Assembly (NCBI GenBank): GCA_030615625.1
Contig: JAUWYX010000002.1
Coordinates: 82,722-146,721 of the forward strand
Reading direction: 5' to 3'
Length of the DNA stretch: 64,000 bases
From: Dehalococcoidia bacterium
GTDB taxonomy: Bacteria; Chloroflexota; Dehalococcoidia; GIF9; AB-539-J10
Both the position numbers and the translations under genes were made by a program. Positions within the stretch are counted from its first letter, which is position 1. The number at the start of each line of letters is the position of its first letter. Shown piece by piece: positions 8,010-19,031 of this stretch. Below the pieces are notes generated by a model. That model was not told the origin of the DNA and did not search any database. It was given only the letters and a program-made list of their open reading frames with translations.

Positions 8010-9731
8010 ATGAAAAACAGCGAGGTGGCTAAGGTATTTCAGGACATTGCTGACCTTCTGGAGCTTAAAGGGGAGAATGTCTTCAAGATTCGCGCCTATC
8101 AGAAGGCAGCCAGGGCTATCGAGCACTACCCCAGGGAATTAAAGGTTATGATTGACGAAGGGGAGGAGTTGCAGAGTATTCCCGGCGTGGGTGAGGCAAT
8201 AGCTAAAAAGACCACCGAGCTGATAACGACCGGTAAGCTGGGTTATTATGAGAATCTGAAGGCTGAGTTTCCCCAAGGGGTAACTAATCTCCTGGCCATA
8301 CCAGGGATTGGGCCTAAGACGGCTCACAAGCTTTCCAGTGAGTTAGGGATAAGCTCTGTGGATGAACTGGAGCGAGCAATCAATGAGGGGCGAGTGGCTA
8401 AGGTCTTCCGTCTGGGCGAAAAGACCGCTGATAATATCCTTCACCAAATCCAGGCATTGCGCCGCAAAGACCAGCGCATCCCTATTGGCGAAGCTTTGCC
8501 CATTGTCGAGGACATATTAGGCGCCCTCCGCTCCGTCCCCGGCGTGAGAAATCTCACTCCCGCTGGCAGCTTACGGCGCTTTCGGGAAACATTGGGTGAT
8601 ATTGACCTGATGGGCACTGCCGATAACCCTAAAGAGGTTATAGATGCTTTTGTTGCCCTGCCTCACGTAAGGCAGGTGCTGGCCCAGGGGTCAACCAAGG
8701 CCAGTGTTATTGTCAGCGGCGGGTTGCAAGTTGACTTGAGGATGGTGGAGCATGACTCCTTCGGTTCCTTGCTTCAGTATTTTACCGGGAGTAAACAGCA
8801 TAACATTTCCTTGAGAGAAAGAGGGCATAAGCAAGGGTTAAAGCTGAGTGAGTATGGGATAACTGTTATAGCTACAGATAAGCTGGAAAAATTTTCTACG
8901 GAGGAAGAATTCTATCATCGGCTGGGACTTCAGTATATTCCACCAGAACTCAGAGAAGCTCAGGGTGAAATAAAAAAGGCTGAGCAGGGAGCTATACCAA
9001 AACTCGTGGAGTTATCTGACATAAAGGGAAACTTTCATACGCATACTGAATGGAGCGATGGGCATGATTCCATCGAGGAACTGGCTCTGGCTGCCAAAGA
9101 TATGGGCTATCAATATATCGCAATCACGGAACATTCCGCTGGACGTGGTATTGCTCACGGTCTCAATGTGGAGAGGCTGAGGAGGCAAGTTGCTGAAATC
9201 AGAGCTCTTAACGGGCGCTTAACCGGGATTCATGTGCTTACTGGCATCGAGGTTGATATTCGGGCGGATGGCAGCTTAGACCTGCCACACGAAATTCTAT
9301 CTGAATTGGATATGGTGATTGCTGCTGTACACTCCGCTATGCACCAAAGTGAAGAAAAGATGACCCGGAGGGTAATAGACGCCATAGAAAATCCCGATGT
9401 TGATATGATTGCCCACCCTACTTGCCGCCTTTTGGGAGAGCGTGAGCCCGTAGCCATAGACTTAGAAGCCATCTTTCAGGCGGCAGCTAAGTATAATAAG
9501 ATTATGGAGATTAACGCCATGCCTGACCGCCTCGATTTAAAGGATATCCATGCTTTCCGTGCCAGAGATTTGGGAGTAAAGCTCGCCATCGGGACCGATG
9601 CTCATAGCATTGCTCATCTGGGCTTTATGCGATTCGGGGTTGGCGTCGCTCGACGGGCTTGGTGTGAGCCGCAGCATATATTAAATACTTTACCCCTGAC
9701 AGAATTGCTTGCCTTTTTAAATAGGAATTGA
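8010..9731 (+). CDS. polX: DNA polymerase X family protein with C-terminal PHP phosphoesterase domain
   Basis: Pol-beta-like N-terminus (KIRAYQKAARAIE, helix-hairpin-helix GIGPKTA) and a PHP domain (FHTHTEWSDGHDSIEELA...ITEHS). The ATG at 8010 is preceded by GGAAGGGAGAAG. The track's 7932 start is an upstream extension. Confidence 0.85.
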   Translation: MKNSEVAKVFQDIADLLELKGENVFKIRAYQKAARAIEHYPRELKVMIDEGEELQSIPGVGEAIAKKTTELITTGKLGYYENLKAEFPQGVTNLLAIPGIGPKTAHKLSSELGISSVDELERAINEGRVAKVFRLGEKTADNILHQIQALRRKDQRIPIGEALPIVEDILGALRSVPGVRNLTPAGSLRRFRETLGDIDLMGTADNPKEVIDAFVALPHVRQVLAQGSTKASVIVSGGLQVDLRMVEHDSFGSLLQYFTGSKQHNISLRERGHKQGLKLSEYGITVIATDKLEKFSTEEEFYHRLGLQYIPPELREAQGEIKKAEQGAIPKLVELSDIKGNFHTHTEWSDGHDSIEELALAAKDMGYQYIAITEHSAGRGIAHGLNVERLRRQVAEIRALNGRLTGIHVLTGIEVDIRADGSLDLPHEILSELDMVIAAVHSAMHQSEEKMTRRVIDAIENPDVDMIAHPTCRLLGEREPVAIDLEAIFQAAAKYNKIMEINAMPDRLDLKDIHAFRARDLGVKLAIGTDAHSIAHLGFMRFGVGVARRAWCEPQHILNTLPLTELLAFLNRN

Positions 9732-9851
9732 TGATTAGCATGGCCCTTTTTGACTTAAATGGCGCTTTGCCCCTGAAGGCACAGGGAAATTCCGGAGGAA
9801 TGTCAGTTCCTTGACATGCCACCGAATAATTACGAAAAAAGGAGGTTCATA

Positions 9852-10649
9852 ATGGCAGAACAGGACGTACTCTACACCAAGGAGGATAACATTGGCATAA
9901 TAACGCTTAACCGTGCCGAAAAACTGAATGCGCTAACACACGAAATGCTCCGCAGTATTAATTCAATTATCGAAGACATTAAGAAGGATGGCAAGGTGAG
10001 AGCTGTCATACTGACTGGAAACGGTCGTGCTTTCTCTGCTGGAACCGATATCTCAGGCGAAGTGCCACAGACAGCGGAGGTAGAGATAAACCTTATGAAA
10101 GAGAAGACCTCCACAGAGTACCGCCAGTCAATTTGGTTCTTCAACAGTATTCCCAAGCCAGTGATTTGCGCCATCAACGGGGCCGCCGTAGGCATTGCAG
10201 CCGAATTTTCACTACATTGCGATATCAGAATCGCTGCTGAAAGTGCCAGGTGGGGACAGGTGTTCGTCTTGAGAGGCATGACACCGGACACCGGCGCAGG
10301 GACTTATCTTCTACCTCGCATCGTGGGACTATCCAAAGCCTGTGAACTGGTATTCTCAGGAGATATCATCGACGCTCAAGAGATGCTGCGAATAGGACTG
10401 GTGAGCAAAGTTGTGCCTGACGCAGAATTGATGCCCACAGCTATAGCAATGGCCAAGAAGCTAACCAGAGGTGCCCCTTTAGCAGTACAGATGGCTAAGC
10501 AATTGATGTATAGAGGCCTTGAGCAAACCATGGAAGCTCACCAGGAGGCTGCGCGCTACTGCTTCCAGTTAAGTTGCAAGACAGAGGATGTCCAGGAAGG
10601 CATCGTATCCTTCTTTGAAAAGAGGGAGCCTCGCTGGAAAGGCAAATAG
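9852..10649 (+). CDS. Enoyl-CoA hydratase/isomerase (crotonase) family protein
   Basis: Crotonase-fold motifs (ITLNRAEKLNAL, AVILTGNGRAFSAGTDI, ICAINGAAVGI). The ATG at 9852 follows AAAGGAGG. Confidence 0.8.
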   Translation: MAEQDVLYTKEDNIGIITLNRAEKLNALTHEMLRSINSIIEDIKKDGKVRAVILTGNGRAFSAGTDISGEVPQTAEVEINLMKEKTSTEYRQSIWFFNSIPKPVICAINGAAVGIAAEFSLHCDIRIAAESARWGQVFVLRGMTPDTGAGTYLLPRIVGLSKACELVFSGDIIDAQEMLRIGLVSKVVPDAELMPTAIAMAKKLTRGAPLAVQMAKQLMYRGLEQTMEAHQEAARYCFQLSCKTEDVQEGIVSFFEKREPRWKGK

Positions 10650-10810
10650 CCTGTCAGTCAGTGCGTTTGCCTGTCTTGAAGGCTCCCGAGGTTTCGTGGA
10701 GGAGAAAGCCTGTTTTTAACGCGAAATAGGAACACTTATGCCTGCGTGAATGTGCTGGATTAACCGCTTAGATGCTATAATCAAAACAAATAACAGAAGG
10801 AGGAAACACG

Positions 10811-11821
10811 ATGTTTAAAACACGCATAACCGAGCTTTTCGGTATCAAGTATCCTATCACCCAGGGTGGAATGATGTGGATTTCCCGGGCAGAACTGGTA
10901 GCCGCAGTGTCCAACGCCGGAGGGCTCGGCATTATCACGGCATTTACATTTCCAACCCCCGCGGAGCTGGCCGCTGAAATCAAAAAGACCAGAGCACTTA
11001 CTGATAAGCCCTTCGGGGTAAATATAACGCTGTTGCCCACTCTTCACCCTGTGGATATTGACGGCTATTTAGATGCGGTCATCAATTCTGGAATAAAGAT
11101 TGTGGAAACAGCCGGCAGAAGCCCGGAGCCATATATGGAGCGGCTTAAGGCGGCTGGAGTAAAGGTGATACACAAGTGCACCGCAGTCCGCTTCGCTCGC
11201 ACCGCTCAGCGAATAGGCTGCGACGCCGTTAGCATTGATGGTTTTGAGTGCGCCGGACACCCTGGCGAAGAGGACGTTACTTCCCTCGTCTTGATTCCTC
11301 TGACTGCTGATGCTGTAGAAATTCCCGTTATTGCCTCTGGAGGCTTCGGCGATGGGCGTGGTCTTGTTGCCGCCCTGGCACTGGGAGCAGAAGCAGTCAA
11401 TATGGGTACCCGCTTCATGGCAACTAAAGAGGCGCCAGGACATGCCAAAGTAAAAGAATTCTTAATCACAGCATCGGAGCGTGACACAGTATTGTTGCTG
11501 CGCTCATTCCGTAACACGATGAGAGCATTGAAAAACCCCACAGCCGAAAAGGTGCTCGAGCTGGAAAAGCAAGGTGCCGATATACATCAACTGGAATCGC
11601 TCATCAGTGGTAGGGTAGGTCTGAACCTGCTTGAATCAGGTGATATCGATAACGGCTTGCTTAGCGTGGGGCAGGTAATAGGCCTTGTTCATGACATTCC
11701 CACGGTCAAGGAGTTGATAGACAGGATAGTAAAGGAAGCTGAGGAGGTTGTCTCCAATATAGCCGCCGGCGGCATTTTCAAGCCACTGCGCAAGCCGACT
11801 GATGTCGCAAATAAGCAGTAA
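10811..11821 (+). CDS. Nitronate monooxygenase / 2-nitropropane dioxygenase (NMO, FabK-like) family flavoprotein
   Basis: N-terminus MFKTRITELFGIKYPITQGGMMWISRAELVAAVSNAGGLGII is the NMO family signature. RBS AGGAGG upstream. Confidence 0.75.
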   Translation: MFKTRITELFGIKYPITQGGMMWISRAELVAAVSNAGGLGIITAFTFPTPAELAAEIKKTRALTDKPFGVNITLLPTLHPVDIDGYLDAVINSGIKIVETAGRSPEPYMERLKAAGVKVIHKCTAVRFARTAQRIGCDAVSIDGFECAGHPGEEDVTSLVLIPLTADAVEIPVIASGGFGDGRGLVAALALGAEAVNMGTRFMATKEAPGHAKVKEFLITASERDTVLLLRSFRNTMRALKNPTAEKVLELEKQGADIHQLESLISGRVGLNLLESGDIDNGLLSVGQVIGLVHDIPTVKELIDRIVKEAEEVVSNIAAGGIFKPLRKPTDVANKQ

Positions 11822-11906
11822 ACCCTGTCAATTATAGATAGGCTCATAATGGCAGGGGTTACCATGCTATTAATCATACAGGAGGATGGGTTCTGTTCTA
11901 TTTTAG

Positions 11907-12176
11907 TTGATGATGACAGAGATAAATATCACCAAAGTTGTTGTTAAGTGGGTAGATGCTAAAATTTACCCAGGGATGCATAAGTCTAGCGAAGCATTAG
12001 AACGCAAGATGGACACATTTGAGAGCTTAGGATACCTTATTGAAAAGAATGACCAAGCCACTATTATCGCTCATGAAATTACAGATGAAGGCGAATATCG
12101 GGATGTGCTTTTGATACCTAGTGGCTCTGTCATATCCATTTACGAATTAGTAACCAGCCCACTCGATAATAGCTAG
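11907..12176 (+). CDS. Hypothetical small protein (89 aa) at the edge of a low-GC island
   Basis: Open frame in an AT-rich segment. No recognisable motif. Confidence 0.3.
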   Translation: MMMTEINITKVVVKWVDAKIYPGMHKSSEALERKMDTFESLGYLIEKNDQATIIAHEITDEGEYRDVLLIPSGSVISIYELVTSPLDNS

Positions 12177-12522
12177 GTTACTTCCTTACCTACTTCTTCG
12201 ATTGTCGTTTTCTGATTCGGGGCTTGTTCCAATATGGACTCCGACAGTTTGGACACAATGTTGGTTTTGCTACCTTGGGTATCCATTTATATTCACACCT
12301 CTTGCACTCAAGAAGTCTAAACCTTAGCCGTCTGGTCATATACAAACCTCCCTATAGACGGGCTTGATATTATCATACAATGATAACAACTCAATGTCAA
12401 TACTTTATTGGCATTGACATACCTATAGCATATATGCTAGAAAAAGCTTGCGTCTGGAATGAGTCGCTTAGCGTCTCGTATTGGGGCGTGAACCCCAAAA
12501 GTCCAGTCGCTTTTTTATTGTC

Positions 12523-13458
12523 ATGTATCTTTGTTACCTTGACGAATCTGGGACTGCAGATATTCCTGGTAGTACCTCACACTATGTACTCGCTGGGCTA
12601 TCTATTCCTTACTCAAACTGGAAGAACCAAGATAAAGAAATTGAGCAAATAAAAGGAAAATATGGTCTTCAGGACACTGAGCTCCATGTTGGTTGGATGC
12701 TTAGACAATACAAAGAGGAGTCAAAAATTCCGAATTTCTTGAAGCTAAGTTTTACACAAAGAAGGTCTAAAGTAAAGCAATTGCAGAAAGCAACCCTACT
12801 GAGACTTCAAAAGACAGGAGGCTCAGCCCATAAGCAAGTCAAGAAAAACTTTGCACAAACTGATGGATATATTCACCTCACTTACCAAGAAAGAGTGCAG
12901 GTCGTGATGGAGGTTGCGACTCGTGTATCACGATGGGGCAATGCTAGATTGTTTGCAGAATGTGTGGACAAGGTTTTCTTCGACCCCGCTCGCACTGGGA
13001 GGACTGTTGCTGAACAGGCTTTTGAACAAGTTGTTACAAGGTTCGAACATTACCTGCAACTAATAGGTGCCAAAGACCCCATTCCTGAACTATGCTATGG
13101 TCTATTAATCCATGATAATAATGAGACAGTTGCCAAGAGACATACAGCTTTGATGAAAGATTATTATAAGAAGGGAACTAGCTACCTGTCTTTAGAACGT
13201 ACAATCGAGACACCATTGTTTGTTGATAGCCAACTTACATGTATGGTACAAATCGCTGACCTATGTGCATACGGATTGCGTAGATATCTTGAGAATGGCG
13301 AAGAAAATATATTCAAGCTCGTAATGAAGAGGGCAGACAGAAAACAGGGAGAACTCGTTGGTATAAGGCATTATACCGATTCAAGCTGTACCTGCAAAAT
13401 CTGCTCTCAACGCAGAACTCCTACGGGCGTACAAGCTGACTTGCCCCTATCCATTTAA
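12523..13458 (+). CDS. DUF3800 family protein
   Basis: N-terminal MYLCYLDESGT matches the DUF3800 (YxDESG) signature. Start trimmed to the ATG at 12523. Lies in an AT-rich segment. Confidence 0.6.
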   Translation: MYLCYLDESGTADIPGSTSHYVLAGLSIPYSNWKNQDKEIEQIKGKYGLQDTELHVGWMLRQYKEESKIPNFLKLSFTQRRSKVKQLQKATLLRLQKTGGSAHKQVKKNFAQTDGYIHLTYQERVQVVMEVATRVSRWGNARLFAECVDKVFFDPARTGRTVAEQAFEQVVTRFEHYLQLIGAKDPIPELCYGLLIHDNNETVAKRHTALMKDYYKKGTSYLSLERTIETPLFVDSQLTCMVQIADLCAYGLRRYLENGEENIFKLVMKRADRKQGELVGIRHYTDSSCTCKICSQRRTPTGVQADLPLSI

Positions 13459-13588
13459 CGACTCAATTTATGACAGGCTATACCTTCTATGCCCGAATTT
13501 TCTATCAACTTCAACCAACAGTACAGGAGGATGTGGTGCCTTGAGTCCTTGGGCTGATGGAGATATAATATGATTTTCCGGAATAATT

Positions 13589-14293
13589 GTGGAGGTGGCT
13601 GGAGTGTCCACTCGAGATACTCAGGCAATCCAAGGGCTGAAAAGTGCTATTGCTGAAGGCAAGAATTGGTATGTGGCCGTGCTTGAAGCCACTCGCCTCT
13701 GGAGTAGTCCTGAAGAGGACTACGACGGGCGACATTATCAATATCTTGTTGACAACGAAGCTTTCGATTGGCTAGTTCTGGCGGAGAGGTTATGTGAAGA
13801 GCTCGATGGACTTATTTCAGAAAAGGAGCGGGCAAATCTTCTCTTCTTCGGTATACCACCAATAGAATTATCTAAAGACGAGTTTAAAAATATAATTGGT
13901 GACTTTAAATACCAGGCTCACCTCAACTATTTCTATGGCATTCTTGTGGAAAAATTTCTCATTTTGGCTGTAACTGAAGAGATACGAAAGAAAAAGAGAG
14001 TTTTAGGTTTGAACAACGATAACGGAATAGTTGATGAGGCCTACCAACGCATTTATGATGCCACTCAATTTGCCCTTTTAAAGCAGTTTAGAAAAGAAAG
14101 ACATTATCCTCAGCTCAGGTCTATAAGCCTGAGCGAGCTTAATGAATTTACCTATTGGCTATTTAAATATCGTATAAAAGGGCGTGATAAATCCCGCGTG
14201 GCCAGCGATACTAAAAAAGCCCTGACAAAGTTGCACGGGTTATTGAAGCTAAAAACTAAATCGCTCCGCTTTTCACCTTCAGAAAGCCAATAA
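13589..14293 (+). CDS. Hypothetical protein (about 234 aa), island-associated; start uncertain
   Basis: Long open frame in the AT-rich segment, convergent with valS. No recognisable domain. Confidence 0.4.
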   Translation: MEVAGVSTRDTQAIQGLKSAIAEGKNWYVAVLEATRLWSSPEEDYDGRHYQYLVDNEAFDWLVLAERLCEELDGLISEKERANLLFFGIPPIELSKDEFKNIIGDFKYQAHLNYFYGILVEKFLILAVTEEIRKKKRVLGLNNDNGIVDEAYQRIYDATQFALLKQFRKERHYPQLRSISLSELNEFTYWLFKYRIKGRDKSRVASDTKKALTKLHGLLKLKTKSLRFSPSESQ

Positions 14294-14311
14294 CTCTTAG
14301 CTATCAGCCGA

Positions 14312-16969
14312 TTAAGAGCTCAGTTGAGATAATTCTTGGTGTAACCTTTTCAATTTATCTTCGAACATAGCAAGCTTTTGTTTCTCTCTTTCAATAACCT
14401 GAGATGGCGCTTTGCTTAAAAAGGCGTTATCTCTTAGCCTGGCTTCAAGTTGGGCGATTCTTCCTTTGATTTCCTCACTTTCCTTTACCAGTCGTTGTTC
14501 TTCAATACGCCGGTCCACCATGCCCGCCAAAGGCACAACTACCTCAGCCTCTTTCAACACCAAAACCAGGGCTTTATCTTTAGTGGGTCCTCTTTCCTGA
14601 CGACCGAGTATTGTTAAGGGGCGAACTTTAGCCAGTGTTTCTATTATATTTGCTTGTGTGATAAGACTCGAAAGAAGCTCACCAGTATAGACTTGGGCTT
14701 CAATCCATCTGGTTGGCCCTACCTTATATTGAGCCCGAACGTTACGAATAGAGCGGATAACCTCTACTACAGAATCCATCACCCGCTCTGCTTCTGGAGC
14801 AAAGGCTTTATCGTCAGCGAGGGGATAAGGAGCTATCATTATAGAAGCTGGCATTTGCCCCTTGTCAGGTAGACGCTGCTTCAAGCTTTGCCAGAGCTCC
14901 TCGGTAACGAAAGGCATGAAAGGATGCAGAAAGCGCAGTGATTTCTCCAATGTATTGGCCAGGAAGGGCAAAGGTGAAGGGGTTAACTGGCTACGAAGCC
15001 GTATCTTAGCAATTTCAATATACCAATCACAGAACTTCGACCAGACAAAATCGTAAATCTGCTGCTCTGCTTCACCAAATTGGAACTCTTCCATCAGCTC
15101 GGTAACATTTTTGACAAGCTTGTTGAGCTGGCCATCAATCCATTGGTCTTCTATTCTCTGCGGTTGGAGCTCTATTGCCTGAGCTTCTAGCCTTTCAGCG
15201 TCCAGGCTCTGAAGGATAAATCTGGTGGCATTCCACAATTTATTAACAAAATTGCGGCTGGATTCCAATTTGCCTTTGCCCAGATTTATATCATTCCCCG
15301 GTGAACCCCCAGTAGTTAGAGCAAAGCGGAGAGCATCAACACCATACTTGCTTATAGCTTCGGCAGGGTTTATAACATTCCCTCGCAATTTGCTCATCTT
15401 TTCTCCGCTTTCATCGCGAATCAGGCCATGGAGGTAAACAGTGCAGAAAGGTATCTCGCCGGTATCCTCCAGTCCCATCATAATCATCCTGGCAACCCAG
15501 AAGAAAAGGATGTCATAGCCCGTTTCCATTACCGAGCCGGGATAGAAATAGCGGAGGTCATCAGTGTCCTCTGGCCAGCCCAGCGTAGAATGTGGCCATA
15601 GCGCTGAGCTAAACCAGGTGTCAAGGACATCAGGGTCCTGGATGATTTGTTTTGAACCACAATGAGTACATGCTGTCGGTTCATCTATCGAGGCAGTCAC
15701 CTCAGCACAGCCCTGACAGTACCATACAGGGATGCGATGTCCCCACCATAGTTGTCGGCTGATACACCAATCTTTGATATTTTCCATCCAGTCAAAATAT
15801 ATCTTGGCGAAGCGTTCCGGCATTATAGTGACCCTGCCATCTTCGACAGCCTCGATAGCAGCTTTAGCTAAGGGCTGTGTTTGGACAAACCATTGCAGGC
15901 TGACTTTGGGTTCAATCATCGTCTGGCAACGACCACAATGTCCTACCGAATGAAAATAAGGCTCTATCTTCTCCAAAAGCTTTTTGTCTTCCAGGTCGGC
16001 TAATACCTTATCTCGACAGGCAAATCTTTCCAGTCCGTGGTAGGGCCCGGCGTTTTCGTTCATAGTAGCATCAGGGTTCATGATATTTACCAAGGGCAAA
16101 TTATGTCTCTGGGCTACTTCGAAGTCTGTGGGGTCATGGGCTGGAGTTATCTTCAACGCTCCGGTGCCGAAAGAAGTATCAACAGCCTCATCAGCAATTA
16201 TGGGGATTTCCTTACCTATAATAGGGAGGGTGACACTTCGGCCTATGAGATTCTTGTAGCGCTCATCTTCGGGATTTACCGCCACAGCCGTGTCGCCGAG
16301 GAAAGTTTCCGGTCGGGTAGTAGCTACGGTGACGAAACCTTCGCTTTGAGTTAGAGGATAGCGAATATAATAAAGATGTCCGACAATATCTTTATGCTCT
16401 ACCTCGAGGTCGGAGAGGGCAGTTTGGCAGCGGGGACACCAGTTTATCATTCGCTCCCCACGATAGATTAACCCCCTGTTGTACAAACGTACAAAGGCAG
16501 TACGGACTGCTTTGCTCGGACCTTCATCCAGGGTGAAGCGCTCCCTTGTCCAATCACAAGAAGCTCCCAAGAGTTGGTGTTGACGCCTGATATTCTCCCG
16601 GCTCTTATCAGCCCATTCCCAGGTCAATTTAGTGAAATTCTCTCTGCCTATCTCCTCCTTGGTTCGCCCTTGTTTAGCCAGTTGCTGTTCCACAACCACT
16701 TGCGTGGCGATGCCAGCGTGGTCGGTCCCCGGTAACCATAAGGTGGGCTCTCCCCTCATTCTGTGCCACCTGACCATAATATCCTCCAGTGTCGCGGTTA
16801 GCGCATGCCCCAGGTGGAGCTCACCAGTAACGTTAGGAGGCGGCATGATAATGACAAAAGGCTTCTTATTGGGATCTATCTTAGGAGAAAAATAGCCCTG
16901 CTGGAGCCAGAAATCATGCCATTTCTTTTCTATCTTGCCTGGCTCATAGGCTTTAGGTACTTCGGACAT
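14312..16969 (-). CDS. valS: Valine--tRNA ligase
   Basis: Class I aaRS HIGH-type motif (PPPNVTGELHLGHAL), KMSKS motif (KMSKLRGN), C-terminal coiled coil; 885 aa. Confidence 0.9.
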   Translation of the reverse strand: MSEVPKAYEPGKIEKKWHDFWLQQGYFSPKIDPNKKPFVIIMPPPNVTGELHLGHALTATLEDIMVRWHRMRGEPTLWLPGTDHAGIATQVVVEQQLAKQGRTKEEIGRENFTKLTWEWADKSRENIRRQHQLLGASCDWTRERFTLDEGPSKAVRTAFVRLYNRGLIYRGERMINWCPRCQTALSDLEVEHKDIVGHLYYIRYPLTQSEGFVTVATTRPETFLGDTAVAVNPEDERYKNLIGRSVTLPIIGKEIPIIADEAVDTSFGTGALKITPAHDPTDFEVAQRHNLPLVNIMNPDATMNENAGPYHGLERFACRDKVLADLEDKKLLEKIEPYFHSVGHCGRCQTMIEPKVSLQWFVQTQPLAKAAIEAVEDGRVTIMPERFAKIYFDWMENIKDWCISRQLWWGHRIPVWYCQGCAEVTASIDEPTACTHCGSKQIIQDPDVLDTWFSSALWPHSTLGWPEDTDDLRYFYPGSVMETGYDILFFWVARMIMMGLEDTGEIPFCTVYLHGLIRDESGEKMSKLRGNVINPAEAISKYGVDALRFALTTGGSPGNDINLGKGKLESSRNFVNKLWNATRFILQSLDAERLEAQAIELQPQRIEDQWIDGQLNKLVKNVTELMEEFQFGEAEQQIYDFVWSKFCDWYIEIAKIRLRSQLTPSPLPFLANTLEKSLRFLHPFMPFVTEELWQSLKQRLPDKGQMPASIMIAPYPLADDKAFAPEAERVMDSVVEVIRSIRNVRAQYKVGPTRWIEAQVYTGELLSSLITQANIIETLAKVRPLTILGRQERGPTKDKALVLVLKEAEVVVPLAGMVDRRIEEQRLVKESEEIKGRIAQLEARLRDNAFLSKAPSQVIEREKQKLAMFEDKLKRLHQELSQLSS

Positions 16970-17061
16970 TAACTCTAAACCTGTCTTAGCTATCGGCTGT
17001 CAGATGAAAGAAATCTTGATATCTGAACAAACTCAAAATTCCAAATTCAAAGCTTGTTTGG

Positions 17062-18261
17062 TCATCGGGATTTTGGCTTTGGAAGAAGCTCCACCACCCT
17101 ATCCAAGACCCTTTCAGCCACCTCTCGCTTAGCCAGTAGAGGCAAGCTATCAATCTTGCCCTCTTGGTCAATTATGGTTACCTTATTGGTGTCAACGCCA
17201 AAGCCACTATCACTAGCTGTAATATCATTGGCCACGATAAAGTCAAGTCCCTTTTGCTGGAGTTTCTGCTTAGCATTTTTCACCAGGTTACTGCTCTCAG
17301 CGGCAAAGCCTACTTTAATGAAATTTCCTTTGACACTGCCTAAGATATCCGGGGGGCATTCCAGCTCTAAGGTTAACCCTGCCTCTCTTTTTTTAATCTT
17401 ATCTTTAGCCGCCTTTATCGGACGGTAATCAGCTACGGCGGCTGCCATAATGAGAGCATCAGCCTGGGAAGTTACCTTCACTACTGCTTGACGCATTTCC
17501 TGGGCTGTGCCGACTTTGATGACATCAACGCCTACGGGCTCGGGTAACGAGATAGGTGCTGTAACCAATGTTACTTTAGCTCCCCGGTCACGGGCTGCTT
17601 CAGCCAGAGCATAGCCCATTTTCCCCGATGAGCGGTTGCTGATGTAGCGAACCGGGTCGATAGGCTCTTGGGTACCGCCTGCGGTAACCACGATATGCTT
17701 GCCAGCCAGGTCTCCACCCCTCCCCAATACCTTGCGGATGTTGCCTATAATATCATCGATATCGGCGAGTCGCCCCAGACCTTCTTTACCCGAGGCTAGC
17801 CAGCCCGTGGCTGGACCAATAATCACAAAGTTGCGAGCTTTAAGCTTGGACAAATTGTCCTGGGTGATTGGATTATTGTACATGTTGGTTTCCATAGCTG
17901 GGGCTATGGCCACCGGCGCCTTGGTAGCCAGCACCGTGCAGCATAGCATGTCGTCAGCAATGCCCGCAGCCAGTTTGGCAATTATATTAGCTGTAGCAGG
18001 AGCAATGACTACTATATCGGCAGCTTCCGCCAAAGAGACATGTTCAATACTGAATTCTGAAGCCAAATCAAACATTTCAGTAACTAAAGGCCTACCGGTA
18101 ATGGCCCGGAGGGTGATGGGTGATATGAACTGGATGGCTTCTTTGGTCATAATTACATTCACATTGGCCCCTGCCTGAGTTAGCTGGCTGGCAATCTCTG
18201 CTGCTTTGTAGGCAGCAATACTCCCTGTTATCCCTAAAACTATAGTTTTGTTGCTAAGCAT
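17062..18261 (-). CDS. coaBC: Bifunctional phosphopantothenoylcysteine decarboxylase / phosphopantothenate--cysteine ligase
   Basis: Flavoprotein N-terminal domain (IVLGITGSIAAYKAAE) and the CoaB ligase C-terminal domain. It overlaps the downstream coaX by 1 nt. Confidence 0.9.
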   Translation of the reverse strand: MLSNKTIVLGITGSIAAYKAAEIASQLTQAGANVNVIMTKEAIQFISPITLRAITGRPLVTEMFDLASEFSIEHVSLAEAADIVVIAPATANIIAKLAAGIADDMLCCTVLATKAPVAIAPAMETNMYNNPITQDNLSKLKARNFVIIGPATGWLASGKEGLGRLADIDDIIGNIRKVLGRGGDLAGKHIVVTAGGTQEPIDPVRYISNRSSGKMGYALAEAARDRGAKVTLVTAPISLPEPVGVDVIKVGTAQEMRQAVVKVTSQADALIMAAAVADYRPIKAAKDKIKKREAGLTLELECPPDILGSVKGNFIKVGFAAESSNLVKNAKQKLQQKGLDFIVANDITASDSGFGVDTNKVTIIDQEGKIDSLPLLAKREVAERVLDRVVELLPKPKSR

Positions 18262-19031
18262 TACTGTTCCTTGTTCATTTCATAAATGAAACGCAGTCCA
18301 ATTAAGGTTAAATTGGGATTTATTACGTCTATGGCTGCTATCTCTTCGGCAAAAGGGTAAGCCTGGCCACCGGTAGCTATCGCCTTTGCTTTGCTTCCCA
18401 ATTCCTGTTCTATTCGCCGAATCATGCCTTCAATAAGCTCAATGTAACCAAATATTATACCTGATTGCATAGCCGCGATAGTATTTCTGCCGATGACTTG
18501 CTTGGGATGGACTAGTTCTATTCGAGGCAACATGGCAGTGCGGGCGAACAATGCTTCACTAGCTATATTAATCCCTGGGGCAATAGCCCCGCCAAGATAA
18601 TCTCCCTCCTTGGAAACAACGTCGAAAGTGGTAGCTGTGCCAAGGTCAATAATTATTAACGGTTTTCCATAGAGGTTCTGGGCAGCCACGGCGTTGACCA
18701 CGCGGTCAGGGCCAACCTCACGAGGATTATCCAGGCGGATGCGCATGCCTGTCTTAACACCAGCTTCGACCACTAAGGGTTTAGTATTTAAATATTTCCT
18801 ACACAGTTCCACGAATGTATACAGCAGCGGTGGCACAACACCACATAATACTACTCCGGTAACCTTTGAAGGCAAGACCTTTTCCCGCTCCATAAGGTTG
18901 AGCACCGCTCCGCCATACTCGTCTGAAGTGCGATGAATGCCGGTAGCTAAATTCCAGGTAGCTTTTAGCCTATCACCATCAAATATACCCAGCTTAACGT
19001 TGGTGTTCCCAATATCAATTGCTAATAACAT
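18261..19031 (-). CDS. coaX: Type III pantothenate kinase
   Basis: MLLAIDIGNTNVKLGIF N-terminus and the second DLGTATTFD phosphate motif typical of CoaX. Confidence 0.85.
   Translation of the reverse strand: MLLAIDIGNTNVKLGIFDGDRLKATWNLATGIHRTSDEYGGAVLNLMEREKVLPSKVTGVVLCGVVPPLLYTFVELCRKYLNTKPLVVEAGVKTGMRIRLDNPREVGPDRVVNAVAAQNLYGKPLIIIDLGTATTFDVVSKEGDYLGGAIAPGINIASEALFARTAMLPRIELVHPKQVIGRNTIAAMQSGIIFGYIELIEGMIRRIEQELGSKAKAIATGGQAYPFAEEIAAIDVINPNLTLIGLRFIYEMNKEQ

What the first reader, a model, noticed from the sequence alone, without database searches (positions are those of the whole stretch)
11860..14300. Low-GC three-gene island (DUF3800 plus two unknown proteins) inserted between the NMO gene and valS
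The segment from ~11.86 to 14.30 kb is visibly more AT-rich than the flanking core genes. It contains:
- an 89-aa unknown (11907..12176);
- a DUF3800-family protein (12523..13458, YLDESGT signature);
- a 234-aa unknown (13589..14293) that ends 18 bp from the convergent valS stop.

It is preceded by a promoter-like TTGACA with a palindromic GCATATATGC (12412-12440). The composition shift and the insertion between housekeeping genes suggest horizontal acquisition.

DUF3800 proteins are poorly characterised and often found in variable or defence-type neighbourhoods. A DUF3800 gene with a downstream partner of unknown function could be a small defence or toxin-antitoxin-like module. No function can be assigned from sequence alone.
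Basis: partly seen in the sequence, partly recalled or inferred. Interest (0 to 1): 0.6.

Follow-up and report, generated by a model that had tools for sequence, protein, structure and literature searches.

The report
IS6-type cassette carrying RNA-linked DUF3800
The AT-rich stretch is mostly a 1.6-kb transposase-less mobile cassette with insertion-sequence (IS6-type) ends that dropped a predicted RNase H-like nuclease gene (DUF3800), its own small structured RNA and two tiny genes into a Dehalococcoidia genome, while the 234-aa "third island gene" is a native, lineage-conserved neighbour of valS.

Summary
The low-GC segment and its ORFs are real: GC is 0.41 against 0.49, the lowest in the window.

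- **234-aa gene is native.** It occurs in 71 Dehalococcoidia species, usually as NMO–234aa–valS. Its orthologues are AT-rich even where nothing is inserted.
- **The insertion is 11889–13525 (1637 bp).** It has an 8-bp target duplication (GGAGGATG) and IS6-type ends (GGTTCTGTT…). The same ends and 8-bp duplications flank 9 further independent insertions. These carry varied cargo: MazF, NYN, HNH, proteases, another DUF3800. One end-bearing copy holds an IS6-family transposase. The window copy has none, so it is a non-autonomous cassette.
- **Conserved RNA.** A 61-nt three-stem RNA with its own promoter and a U-tract lies directly upstream of DUF3800. It recurs upstream of DUF3800 homologues down to about 46% identity, on a Leptospira plasmid and on viral contigs. 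Covariation supports the fold, and Rfam has no match.

Function is inferred only: an RNA-controlled nuclease module of the addiction or defence type.

The parts
11881..11888 (.). Left copy of the 8-bp target-site duplication, GGAGGATG
   Evidence: The sequence is single-copy in relatives lacking the insert (L003, L005, L042) and is repeated at 13526-13533.
11889..11910 (+). Left terminal inverted repeat, GGTTCTGTTCTATTTTAGTTGA (IS6-type end)
   Evidence: Homology to relatives stops at 11888. The same 22-mer bounds 22 metagenome loci with differing cargo. It is unique in the window. Its first 9 nt are identical to the IS257 IR GGTTCTGTTGCAAAGTT (PMC4856351).
11907..12176 (+). u89, an 89-aa protein of unknown function. 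It is the commonest first ORF of this cassette family, and its start codon lies inside the left IR.
   Evidence: ORF. Copies 83-88% identical sit at the same position in L083, L099 and L101; L082 and L089 carry u89 after a ~146-bp extra segment (start at about +165 to +175), and L091 and L095 hold truncated remnants at +19. Variable sites by codon position are 14/9/29, and 25 variable codons are synonymous-only against 4-8 in the other frames. There are no Pfam, NCBIfam, PADLOC or PDB matches.
12190..12345 (-). zn51, a small CxxC...CPxC Zn-ribbon protein. The likely start is the ATG at 12339, giving 49 aa.
   Evidence: ORF. Variable sites by codon position are 5/6/19, with 15 synonymous-only against 8 non-synonymous codons. 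It is conserved at 80-92% in all cassette copies that carry this DUF3800. Homologues 55-57% identical occur in L097 and L086. There are weak Zn-ribbon Pfam hits only.
12372..12400 (-). Sigma-70-like promoter for zn51 (TTGACA-17-TATGAT)
   Evidence: It matches 11 of 12 consensus positions in the promoter scan. It lies back-to-back with the plus-strand promoter.
12414..12443 (+). Promoter of the RNA/DUF3800 unit (TTGACA-18-TAGAAA). The 14-bp palindrome TAGCATATATGCTA (12426-12439) lies in the spacer.
   Evidence: TTGACA-17/18-TAnAAn ending about 6 nt before the RNA's first G is conserved in L105, L109 and L111 and in the cassette copies, read by eye. The simple scan did not call it because the -10 hexamer lacks the final T.
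12450..12520 (+). Conserved three-stem RNA (stems P1, P2, P3; 12450-12510) followed by a U-tract (12511-12516)
   Evidence: Covariance model (CM) hit of 81.5 bits, E 5e-20. Across 17 distinct sequences 88% of cells are paired against about 42% when partners are slid, and 11 pairs change on both sides. MFE is -28.9 kcal/mol with z -4.7. No Rfam family matches.
12523..13458 (+). DUF3800 protein, 311 aa, a predicted RNase H2/H3-fold nuclease with a C-terminal H-C-C-C knuckle
13496..13525 (+). Right subterminal region and degenerate right inverted repeat (...TTCAACC-AACAGTACA)
   Evidence: It matches the right-end consensus TTTCTATCCACTTCAACCGAA[C/G]AG[A/T]ACC of the family. Similarity to L082 and L074 ends at 13524.
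13526..13533 (.). Right copy of the 8-bp target-site duplication, GGAGGATG
   Evidence: From. Collinearity with the relatives resumes at about 13522, because the last 4 nt of the element (13522-13525, TACA) coincide with the native TACA that precedes the target.
13589..14293 (+). u234, a native lineage-conserved gene that is NOT part of the insertion. The probable true start is the GTG at 13604 (229 aa), and its own promoter is at 13541-13569.

Best explanation
**Shown.**
- Window 11889-13525 is a 1637-bp transposase-less mobile insertion cassette.
- It is bounded by IS6-family-type terminal inverted repeats and an 8-bp target duplication.
- It is recently inserted in the NMO–u234 intergenic spacer of a Dehalococcoidia genome.
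- The 234-aa gene downstream is native.
- The cassette belongs to a family found in Dehalococcoidia-type metagenomes. Its members share the ends and swap cargo.
- One contig (L097) places an IS6-family DDE transposase about 600 bp inside a left end of this type, although no matching right end was found there. Decayed C-terminal remnants of that transposase lie inside other copies, including a complete, TSD-flanked one (L089).

**Inferred.** The window copy was mobilised in trans by such a transposase. It may now be immobile, because its right repeat is degenerate.

**Cargo** consists of three parts:
1. u89, a conserved small protein whose start codon lies inside the left repeat.
2. zn51, a small Zn-ribbon protein with its own promoter.
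3. A divergent, self-contained unit: a sigma-70 promoter, then a 61-nt three-stem RNA whose closing stem is followed by a U-tract, then 12 nt, then the DUF3800 ORF.

The RNA–DUF3800 unit is the evolutionarily stable module. It recurs without zn51, u89 or the IS ends in other phyla, on a plasmid and on viral contigs.

**Most likely mechanism (inferred, about 35%).** DUF3800 is an active metal-dependent RNase H2-like nuclease. Its activity or synthesis is held in check by the RNA encoded just upstream.
- The P1 stem plus U-tract would terminate most transcripts. This gives excess short RNA and little full-length mRNA, as in type III toxin-antitoxin loci.
- The two helices carry identical GCGUC/GUCGC boxes with conserved U·U mismatches. 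These are candidate binding sites for a protein dimer.
- The module would then act as an addiction or anti-phage (abortive-infection-type) element that stabilises the mobile DNA carrying it.
- zn51 is most simply a local transcriptional regulator of the divergent promoters.
For: **Boundaries and recency.** Relatives are collinear up to 11888 and again from about 13522. GGAGGATG is single-copy in them.

**Same element in other contexts.**
- It is found at 86-89% nt identity in unrelated contexts, with similarity starting and stopping at the same ends.
- A metagenome scan for the left end returned 22 loci.

**Target duplications.** Ten independent insertions carry an 8-bp direct repeat.
- 8 of 8 matching: window, L074, L089, L091, L267.
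- 7 of 8: L082, L083, L099.
- 6 of 8: L080, L084.

**Inverted repeat.** GGTTCTGTTCG / CGAACAGAACC.

**IS6 link.**
- The L097 325-aa ORF is DDE_Tnp_IS240, E 5e-18.
- Remnants of the same transposase lie in L089, L094 and L103.
- The IS257 IR is GGTTCTGTTGCAAAGTT, and the IS6 family makes 8-bp duplications.

**No transposase here.** There is no transposase ORF in the insert and no IS6 transposase anywhere in the window.

**u234 is native**.

**RNA.**
- All 17 distinct instances lie directly upstream of, and co-oriented with, a DUF3800 ORF.
- The structure statistics support the fold.
- The single-sequence fold agrees with the consensus.

**Protein fold and invariant acidic residues**.

**Literature.** DUF3800 has an RNase H fold and is repeatedly linked to ncRNAs, to retron type VII and to Cas12a2/VI-F loci.

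**Cargo of sister cassettes** is rich in TA and nuclease genes.
Against: - No experiment or expression data exist. The RNA's ends are inferred from a promoter read by eye and from a U-tract.
- The simple terminator scan found none, because the structure is a three-way junction.
- Three of the 17 RNA instances lack the U-tract (both Leptospira-type sequences, L123 and L127, and L130), so termination is not universal.
- The RNA is always in the 5' leader position. A purely cis-regulatory role therefore fits equally well.
- PADLOC gives only a weak 53-residue hit to candidate PDC-M04A.
- No autonomous copy with both ends and an intact transposase was recovered. L097 shows a left end but no recognisable right end.
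- The covariation sample is small (17 sequences, several closely related), and the alignment was fitted to the model.
- The operator-like palindrome is not conserved in L262.
Confidence: 0.8

Rival explanations
1. A three-gene horizontally acquired island (89 aa, DUF3800, 234 aa) sits between NMO and valS, and the 234-aa protein is DUF3800's functional partner.
For: All three genes are AT-rich and co-oriented. Neither the 89-aa nor the 234-aa protein has a family annotation.
Against: - u234 is conserved in 71 species and is syntenic with valS, coaBC and panK.
- Its orthologues are 3-9 GC points below their neighbours even without the insert.
- The repeat-defined insert ends at 13525, upstream of u234's own promoter.
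- No u234 homologue lies next to any other DUF3800 copy.
Confidence: 0.02
2. DUF3800 is itself the transposase. Its RNase H-like fold would act as a DDE-type enzyme, making this an autonomous insertion sequence of a new family, with the upstream RNA acting like a guide or bridge RNA.
For: - It is the only large ORF between the inverted repeats.
- It has an RNase H-like fold with invariant D/E residues.
- A structured RNA sits next to the gene, which superficially recalls IS110 or IS605 elements.
Against: - The same ends and 8-bp duplications bound cassettes with no DUF3800 at all (L084, L089, L091, L099).
- A bona fide IS6-family transposase and its remnants lie within the same end family.
- The RNA-DUF3800 unit occurs at about 60% identity without these ends.
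- The best structural matches are RNase HII/HIII, not transposases or integrases.
Confidence: 0.03
3. The cassette description holds, but the RNA is only a cis-acting 5' leader (a transcription attenuator or autoregulatory site) that tunes DUF3800 expression. DUF3800 would be an accessory nucleic-acid-processing enzyme, for example removing RNA-DNA hybrids for mobile elements, and not a toxin or defence effector.
For: - The RNA is always immediately 5' of, and co-oriented with, the ORF.
- No separate promoter is visible between the RNA and the ORF.
- DUF3800 homologues often sit alone among housekeeping genes.
Against: - The literature reports other DUF3800-associated RNAs on either side and on either strand of the gene, which argues for trans-acting partners.
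- DUF3800 recurs as a retron and CRISPR accessory or effector and as cargo of plasmids, viral contigs and IS cassettes.
Confidence: 0.3
4. The segment is ancestral, and the relatives lost it by deletion between short repeats.
For: A 12-bp direct repeat (TACAGGAGGATG) flanks the segment. Such a repeat could mediate deletion.
Against: - More than 20 species share the short NMO-u234 spacer.
- The segment has IS-type inverted repeats.
- It occurs elsewhere, flanked by different 8-bp duplications.
- Its GC is 8 points below the genome's.
Confidence: 0.02

Closest known systems
IS6 family insertion sequences (IS26, IS257/IS431, IS1216)
   Same: - The ends start GGTTCTGTT, identical to the first 9 nt of the IS257 IR.
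- The target duplication is 8 bp.
- A DDE_Tnp_IS240 transposase lies within the same end family (L097).
   Different: - The window copy has no transposase and a degenerate right repeat.
- The repeats diverge from IS257 after position 9.
- The family's transposase (L097) has an N-terminal CxxC Zn finger.
- Elements carry passenger genes whose first ORF starts inside the repeat.
- Insertion sites cluster 15 nt upstream of -35 boxes. I do not know of this for IS26 or IS257.
Mobile insertion cassettes (MICs, e.g. MIC231 of Bacillus cereus) and passenger-carrying IS (tIS). These are cited from my own knowledge and were not checked in the library.
   Same: IS-type inverted repeats and a target duplication flank passenger genes, with no transposase. 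Mobilisation in trans by a cognate IS is presumed.
   Different: - This family derives from an IS6-type element in Dehalococcoidia.
- Trans-mobilisation is not demonstrated.
- The cargo is TA-, nuclease- or protease-like rather than, for example, resistance genes.
DUF3800-associated RNA motifs DUF3800-I to -XI, drum and skipping-rope (Weinberg et al. 2017, PMC5737381)
   Same: A conserved structured RNA is tied to DUF3800 genes across phyla. Several of the described motifs are followed by terminators. Their function is unknown.
   Different: - No Rfam 15 family matches at E<=1. The Rfam 15 paper lists DUF3800-I (RF02969) and DUF3800-IX (RF02968) as families.
- This motif is strictly 5' of and co-oriented with the ORF, whereas the DUF3800-I RNAs (with drum and skipping-rope) are reported on either side and in either orientation relative to the associated gene.
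- Identity with a motif absent from Rfam could not be excluded, because the paper's supplementary alignments are not held.
Type III toxin-antitoxin systems (ToxIN, CptIN, TenpIN). Cited from established knowledge.
   Same: The layout is promoter, then small RNA gene, then terminator-like element, then protein ORF. Both are carried on mobile DNA.
   Different: - The RNA here is a single three-stem junction, not tandem repeats.
- The protein has an RNase H2-like fold, not ToxN-like.
- Toxicity and neutralisation are untested.
RNase HII/HIII (type 2 RNase H)
   Different: - Sequence identity is only about 10%.
- There are large helical insertions (residues 30-140) and a C-terminal H-C-C-C knuckle.
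- No RNase HII or HIII Pfam or NCBIfam model is hit.
- The substrate is unknown.
Retron type VII (RT plus DUF3800) and Cas12a2/VI-F-associated TPR-DUF3800
   Same: They share the same domain family, paired with a non-coding nucleic acid in a defence context.
   Different: There is no reverse transcriptase, no CRISPR array or cas gene, and no TPR domain here.

Membership tests
DUF3800 (Pfam PF12686) | A match to the family HMM above the gathering score | tested here: met
   68.2 bits against a cutoff of 21, E 1.7e-18, covering the full-length profile 1-149.
DUF3800 (Pfam PF12686) | An N-terminal DE(S) motif and a C-terminal QxxD motif | tested here: met
   YLDESGT supplies D7 and E8. QIAD supplies Q243 and D246. 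All are invariant across 40 homologues.
DUF3800 (Pfam PF12686) | An RNase H(2)-like fold | tested here: met
IS6-family insertion sequence (autonomous) | Encodes a DDE transposase of the IS240/IS6 type between its ends | tested here: not met
   The insert holds no such ORF. tblastn with the L097 transposase against the whole window gives nothing better than E 0.39.
IS6-family insertion sequence (autonomous) | Terminal inverted repeats of the IS6 type (GG...; IS257 is GGTTCTGTTGCAAAGTT) | tested here: met
   The left end is GGTTCTGTTCTATTTTAGTTGA. The family's right end is CGAA[C/G]AG[A/T]ACC. The window's right end is degenerate, with 2-3 changes.
IS6-family insertion sequence (autonomous) | An 8-bp target-site duplication | tested here: met
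   GGAGGATG occurs twice in the window. Nine further sites match at 6-8 of 8 positions. The family property is taken from PMC4196232.
Mobile insertion cassette (non-autonomous, IS-derived) | IS-type repeats and a target duplication around passenger genes, with no transposase | tested here: met
   See the IS6-family rows. The passengers are u89, zn51 and RNA plus DUF3800.
Mobile insertion cassette (non-autonomous, IS-derived) | Mobilised in trans by the cognate transposase | not testable with these tools
   Support is indirect only. The same ends occur at 10 different sites, and a cognate transposase occurs within the family.
Weinberg DUF3800-associated RNA motifs (Rfam DUF3800-I, -IX and others) | A match to a described covariance model | tested here: not met
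   cmscan at E<=1 on the window 11500-14500 and on 13 related loci gives no DUF3800-motif hit.
Weinberg DUF3800-associated RNA motifs (Rfam DUF3800-I, -IX and others) | A conserved structured RNA adjacent to DUF3800 genes | tested here: met
   All 17 distinct instances are adjacent. 88% of cells are paired, and 11 pairs covary.
Type III toxin-antitoxin | An antitoxin RNA made of tandem repeats that are processed by the toxin | tested here: not met
   The RNA is a single three-stem junction, not a run of tandem units. Two helices share a 6-nt box.
Type III toxin-antitoxin | The protein is toxic and is neutralised by the RNA | not testable with these tools
   This needs expression assays.
Known anti-phage defence systems (PADLOC-DB v2) | Component HMM matches with a system-level gene set | tested here: not met
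   The only hit is DUF3800 residues 2-54 against candidate PDC-M04A (E 3e-4). u89, zn51 and u234 give nothing.
Retron type VII | An adjacent reverse transcriptase and msr/msd ncRNA | tested here: not met
   There is no RT ORF in or beside the insert. The neighbours are NMO and u234.
Integrase-mediated genomic island | An integrase gene and a tRNA/tmRNA att site | tested here: not met
   There are no tRNA or tmRNA genes in 9000-19000 and no integrase ORF.

The most novel reading that the evidence does not exclude
The 61-nt three-stem RNA and the DUF3800 RNase H2-like nuclease form a previously undescribed two-component RNA-protein module. It would be a new class of DUF3800-associated RNA working as antitoxin, inhibitor or sensor of the nuclease. 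It would function as an addiction or abortive-infection system and hitch-hike on IS6-type cassettes, plasmids and prophage-like viral contigs across phyla. The cassette family may additionally target sites 15 nt upstream of sigma-70 -35 boxes.
Probability: 0.3. Interest if true: 0.7.

Novelty: new variant of a known kind. Interest (0 to 1): 0.5.

Why it matters
DUF3800 is a widespread RNase H-fold family. It keeps appearing next to structured RNAs, retrons and CRISPR effectors, yet it has no demonstrated function.

- **A minimal test system.** This locus offers a compact version of the RNA-protein pairing in about 1.1 kb: promoter, 61-nt RNA, ORF. It has clear catalytic and RNA-structure mutations to test.
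- **Mobility.** The unit travels as cargo of a transposase-less IS6-type cassette family in Dehalococcoidia, a group with few described mobile elements.
- **A caution on low GC.** Low GC alone mis-assigned a native, lineage-conserved orphan gene (u234) to an "island".

Tried and rejected
1. **DUF3800 as the transposase.** Rejected for three reasons:
   - The ends are shared by cassettes with no DUF3800.
   - An IS6 transposase lies within the family.
2. **The 12-bp repeat TACAGGAGGATG as an att core or a 12-bp duplication.** Rejected. Other copies show 8-bp duplications. The extra TAC(A) is the tip of the right repeat, whose family variant is ...AGTACC.
3. **u234 as part of the island.** Rejected.
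4. **Rfam.** Three scans found no family for the RNA. I also obtained no positive control for Rfam's DUF3800 motifs on other DUF3800 loci.
5. **Family searches for u89, zn51 and u234.** PADLOC, NCBIfam and PHROGs gave nothing useful.
6. **Homologue search with zn51.** Only one protein was found, so short ORFs of this kind are evidently rarely called.
8. **Viral-contig scan for the left end.** No hits.
9. **A 14-base pattern for the RNA's P2 hairpin in viral contigs.** It returned mostly chance hits. Only 4 of 78 were confirmed by the covariance model.
10. **Right end of the L097 transposase-bearing copy.** Not found.
11. **AFDB50 fold search.** The library was unavailable.
12. **zn51 operator idea.** The palindrome is compensated in L082 but absent in L262, so this is only weak support.
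13. **Weinberg supplementary alignments.** They are not held, so a direct comparison with DUF3800-II to -XI was impossible.
Full report
**1. Observation check**

The composition shift is real.
- The segment 11860-14300 has GC 0.413. All other 2.4-kb windows of the 64-kb sequence average 0.491 (sd 0.022, minimum 0.448), so none is as low.
- The three ORFs sit where stated. The middle one is a full-length DUF3800 (PF12686, 68 bits; YLDESGT). It also matches phrog_38260 at E 1.9e-108.
- TTGACA (12414-12419) and GCATATATGC (12428-12437) are present.

**2. The 234-aa gene is native**

- It has 3468 homologues, many 83-97% identical.
- A scan of one genome per GTDB species found it in 71 Dehalococcoidia (Chloroflexota) genomes.
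- In most of these genomes the gene order is PolX-(ECH)-NMO-u234-valS(-)-coaBC(-)-panK(-). In more than 20 species the NMO-to-u234 spacer is only about 120-150 bp. None of the 73 loci holds DUF3800, u89 or zn51.
- In relatives without the insert, u234 orthologues are still 3-9 GC points below their neighbours, for example L003 at 0.425 against 0.513 and 0.461. Their AT-richness is therefore intrinsic.
- u234 has its own promoter (TTGAGT-17-TATAAT, 13541-13569). Translation probably starts at the GTG at 13604, behind GGAGGTG. That gives 229 aa, the length of many homologues. The start site is an inference.
- I conclude that u234 is a lineage-conserved orphan gene.

**3. The true insertion**

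- Alignment with the closest relatives (L003, L005, L042) shows collinearity up to 11888 and again from about 13522.
- The intervening DNA recurs at 86-89% nt identity in unrelated contexts:
  - upstream of a DnaJ gene (L082);
  - upstream of a DEAD helicase (L074-79);
  - between DUF1385 and an F420-oxidoreductase-like gene (L080/81).
- In each case similarity starts at GGTTCTGTTC(G/T)ATTTTAGTTGA and stops at ...TTCAACCGAA(C/G)AG(A/T)ACC. These two ends are inverted repeats of each other: GGTTCTGTTCG and CGAACAGAACC.
- Ten independent insertions are flanked by site-specific 8-bp direct repeats:
  - window, GGAGGATG, 8 of 8;
  - L074, AACGAGTA, 8 of 8;
  - L089, GGTACATA, 8 of 8;
  - L091, TATGCGGA, 8 of 8;
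  - L267, CCGCAATC, 8 of 8;
  - L082, L083 and L099, 7 of 8;
  - L080 and L084, 6 of 8.
- The window element is therefore 11889-13525 (1637 bp, GC 0.411). Its duplications lie at 11881-11888 and 13526-13533.
- The apparent 12-bp repeat is the 8-bp duplication plus a chance match between the tip of the right repeat (TACA) and the native TACA. The window's right repeat is degenerate.

**4. What kind of mobile element**

- A metagenome scan for the 22-nt left end returned 22 loci. Most carry different cargo between the same ends:
  - a PemK/MazF toxin with an RHH partner;
  - NYN-domain proteins;
  - HNH nucleases;
  - an SDH/ClpP-type protease;
  - a retropepsin-like protein;
  - a second DUF3800 subfamily of 256 aa.
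- L097 holds, about 600 bp inside a left end of this type, a 325-aa DDE_Tnp_IS240 (IS6-family) transposase with an N-terminal Zn finger. Its C-terminal remnants lie in L089, L094/98 and L103.
- The IS257 inverted repeat is GGTTCTGTTGCAAAGTT, and IS6-family elements make 8-bp duplications. The left end here shares the first 9 nt of that repeat.
- The window's insert has no transposase, and the whole window has none of this type.
- It is therefore a non-autonomous IS6-type cassette (MIC-like). It was presumably moved in trans. That step is inferred.
- There is no tRNA and no integrase.

**5. Cargo**

- **u89.** It is the commonest first ORF of the family. Its start codon lies at +19, inside the left repeat. 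Codon-position statistics support a coding gene: variable sites 14/9/29, and 25 synonymous-only codons against 4-8 in the other frames. It has no known relatives.
- **zn51.** It is also under coding constraint: variable sites 5/6/19, with 15 synonymous-only against 8 non-synonymous codons. It has an 11-of-12 sigma-70 promoter.
  - It accompanies every DUF3800 copy of 73-86% identity.
  - It does not accompany homologues at about 60% identity.
  - Homologues sit upstream of the L097 transposase and in L086.
  - It is therefore a cassette-lineage accessory, not an obligate DUF3800 partner.

**6. The conserved RNA**

- A conserved non-coding sequence lies directly upstream of the ORF. It also lies upstream of DUF3800 homologues of about 46-61% identity, and of two still more divergent DUF3800 ORFs, in unrelated contexts:
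  - a contig whose DUF3800 protein NCBI labels as from an Anaerolineae MAG, and other metagenome contigs;
  - Leptospira weilii plasmid pLiSL18;
  - IMG/VR contigs.
- It folds as a three-way junction:
  - P1, GCGUCUGGR/YCCAGUCGC;
  - P2, UGAGUCGC/GCGUCUCA;
  - P3, of variable sequence.
- P1 and P2 carry the same box, each with a conserved U·U mismatch. P1 is followed by a U-tract in 14 of the 17 sequences.
- A covariance model built from 15 sequences finds one hit in the window, at 12450-12520 (81.5 bits).
- On 17 distinct sequences:
  - 88.3% of cells are paired, against 38-43% with slid partners;
  - 11 pairs change on both sides, against 4-6;
  - the covariation score is 0.196, against at most 0.133;
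  - 0 of 500 shuffles reach the observed values.
- The window RNA alone folds into the same structure (-28.9 kcal/mol, z -4.7).
- A TTGACA-17/18-TAnAAn promoter ends about 6 nt before the first G in distant copies too. This was read by eye.
- No Rfam 15 family matches. The Rfam 15 paper lists DUF3800-I and DUF3800-IX as families.
- Weinberg et al. described 11 unrelated DUF3800-associated RNA motifs of unknown function. This one is either a further class or one that is not in Rfam.

**7. Mechanism**

- **Shown:** a promoter-like sequence, then the structured RNA with a U-tract, then the DUF3800 ORF 12 nt later. This unit is conserved across phyla and is carried on mobile DNA.
- **Inferred (about 35%):** the RNA is the partner or inhibitor of an active RNase H2-like nuclease. 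The P1 stem plus U-tract would set a high RNA-to-mRNA ratio, as in type III toxin-antitoxin loci. The module would then serve as an addiction or abortive-infection device.
- **Main rival (about 30%):** the RNA is only a cis-acting leader.
- Membership in type III TA systems, retron VII, PADLOC systems or the known Rfam motifs was tested and not met (see the membership table).

**8. Verdict**

- The element is a new variant of known kinds, namely an IS6-derived cassette and a DUF3800-associated RNA.
- Interest is moderate. The locus gives a compact, testable handle on the unresolved DUF3800/ncRNA question.

Noticed in passing
window 13589-14293; loci L003-L073: u234 is a lineage-conserved orphan. 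It occurs in 71 Dehalococcoidia species and forms 452 clusters at 50% identity. It is usually convergent to valS. Its AF2 model is very confident (pLDDT 93), yet no PDB or BFVD structural relative and no Pfam family exist. It is consistently more AT-rich than its neighbours.
   Followed up: yes
right flanks of the window element (13526-13546) and of L080, L083, L091, L099, L267, L074, L084: In 5 of 10 independent insertion sites a TTGACA or TTGACG starts exactly 16 nt beyond the right tip, which is 7 nt after the 8-bp duplication. Weaker TTGxxx hexamers occupy the same position in the window (TTGAGT, the -35 of u234's promoter) and in L074, and lie one nt further out (+17) in L084. The chance rate is about 4% per site for the whole +12 to +18 range. 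The cassettes therefore sit about 15 nt upstream of promoters. Whether this reflects targeting or selection is unresolved.
   Followed up: partly
left flanks of window 11869-11880, L074, L080, L083: Four insertion sites share (TGTCAC)YAATCMYAT 4-11 nt to the left of the duplication. This may be part of a common target or promoter architecture.
   Followed up: no
L083-L104 (metagenome loci with the same left end): These loci form a family of IS6-type cassettes of 0.75-2.5 kb. Their cargo is interchangeable: MazEF-like pairs, NYN, HNH, an SDH protease, a retropepsin-like protein, and a second DUF3800 subfamily of 256 aa without the RNA motif. In most of them the first ORF starts at +19, inside the left inverted repeat.
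   Followed up: partly
window 12450-12510; alignment A8: Helices P1 and P2 of the RNA contain the same 6-nt box (GCGUCU paired with AGUCGC). Each has a U·U mismatch that is almost never 'repaired'. In L125 all four strands changed together (U to C, A to G). This suggests two equivalent protein-binding sites or an alternative pairing.
   Followed up: partly
L074 10722-11950; L075/L076 5129-7967: About 3 kb downstream of the cassette these contigs hold a second, different DUF3800 gene (236 aa) with a 173-aa partner. In L075 and L076 an AbiEii-family gene also follows. The neighbourhood looks like a defence island.
   Followed up: no
L111-L114 (about 5450-7165 in L111): A 61%-identical RNA-DUF3800 unit lies next to an AIPR (abortive infection phage resistance) gene and an FHA/Ser-Thr kinase gene.
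   Followed up: no
L144 (E. coli plasmid NZ_CP075065.1) and about 20 similar small plasmids: ColE1-type plasmids of 3.6-6.9 kb from E. coli, Klebsiella and Citrobacter carry a distant DUF3800 (24% identity) as one of only 3-4 genes. Hairpin or terminator-like Rfam noise hits lie just upstream of it.
   Followed up: no
L097 1682-1810 (relative to its left end) and L086: zn51-like Zn-ribbon ORFs (R-L-[RK]-C-K-Q-C-x-H-K-W-V-P-R...C-P-x-C-H-S-P-Y-W-N) sit directly upstream of the IS6-type transposase in L097 and divergent from a DNA methyltransferase. Gene callers almost never call this family.
   Followed up: partly
L056 7838-10000: In one relative the NMO-u234 spacer holds a different gene of normal GC: a 469-aa protein that by its sequence looks like a CoA-binding, acyl-CoA-synthetase-type enzyme (not checked against any family library). 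It has no IS ends.
   Followed up: partly
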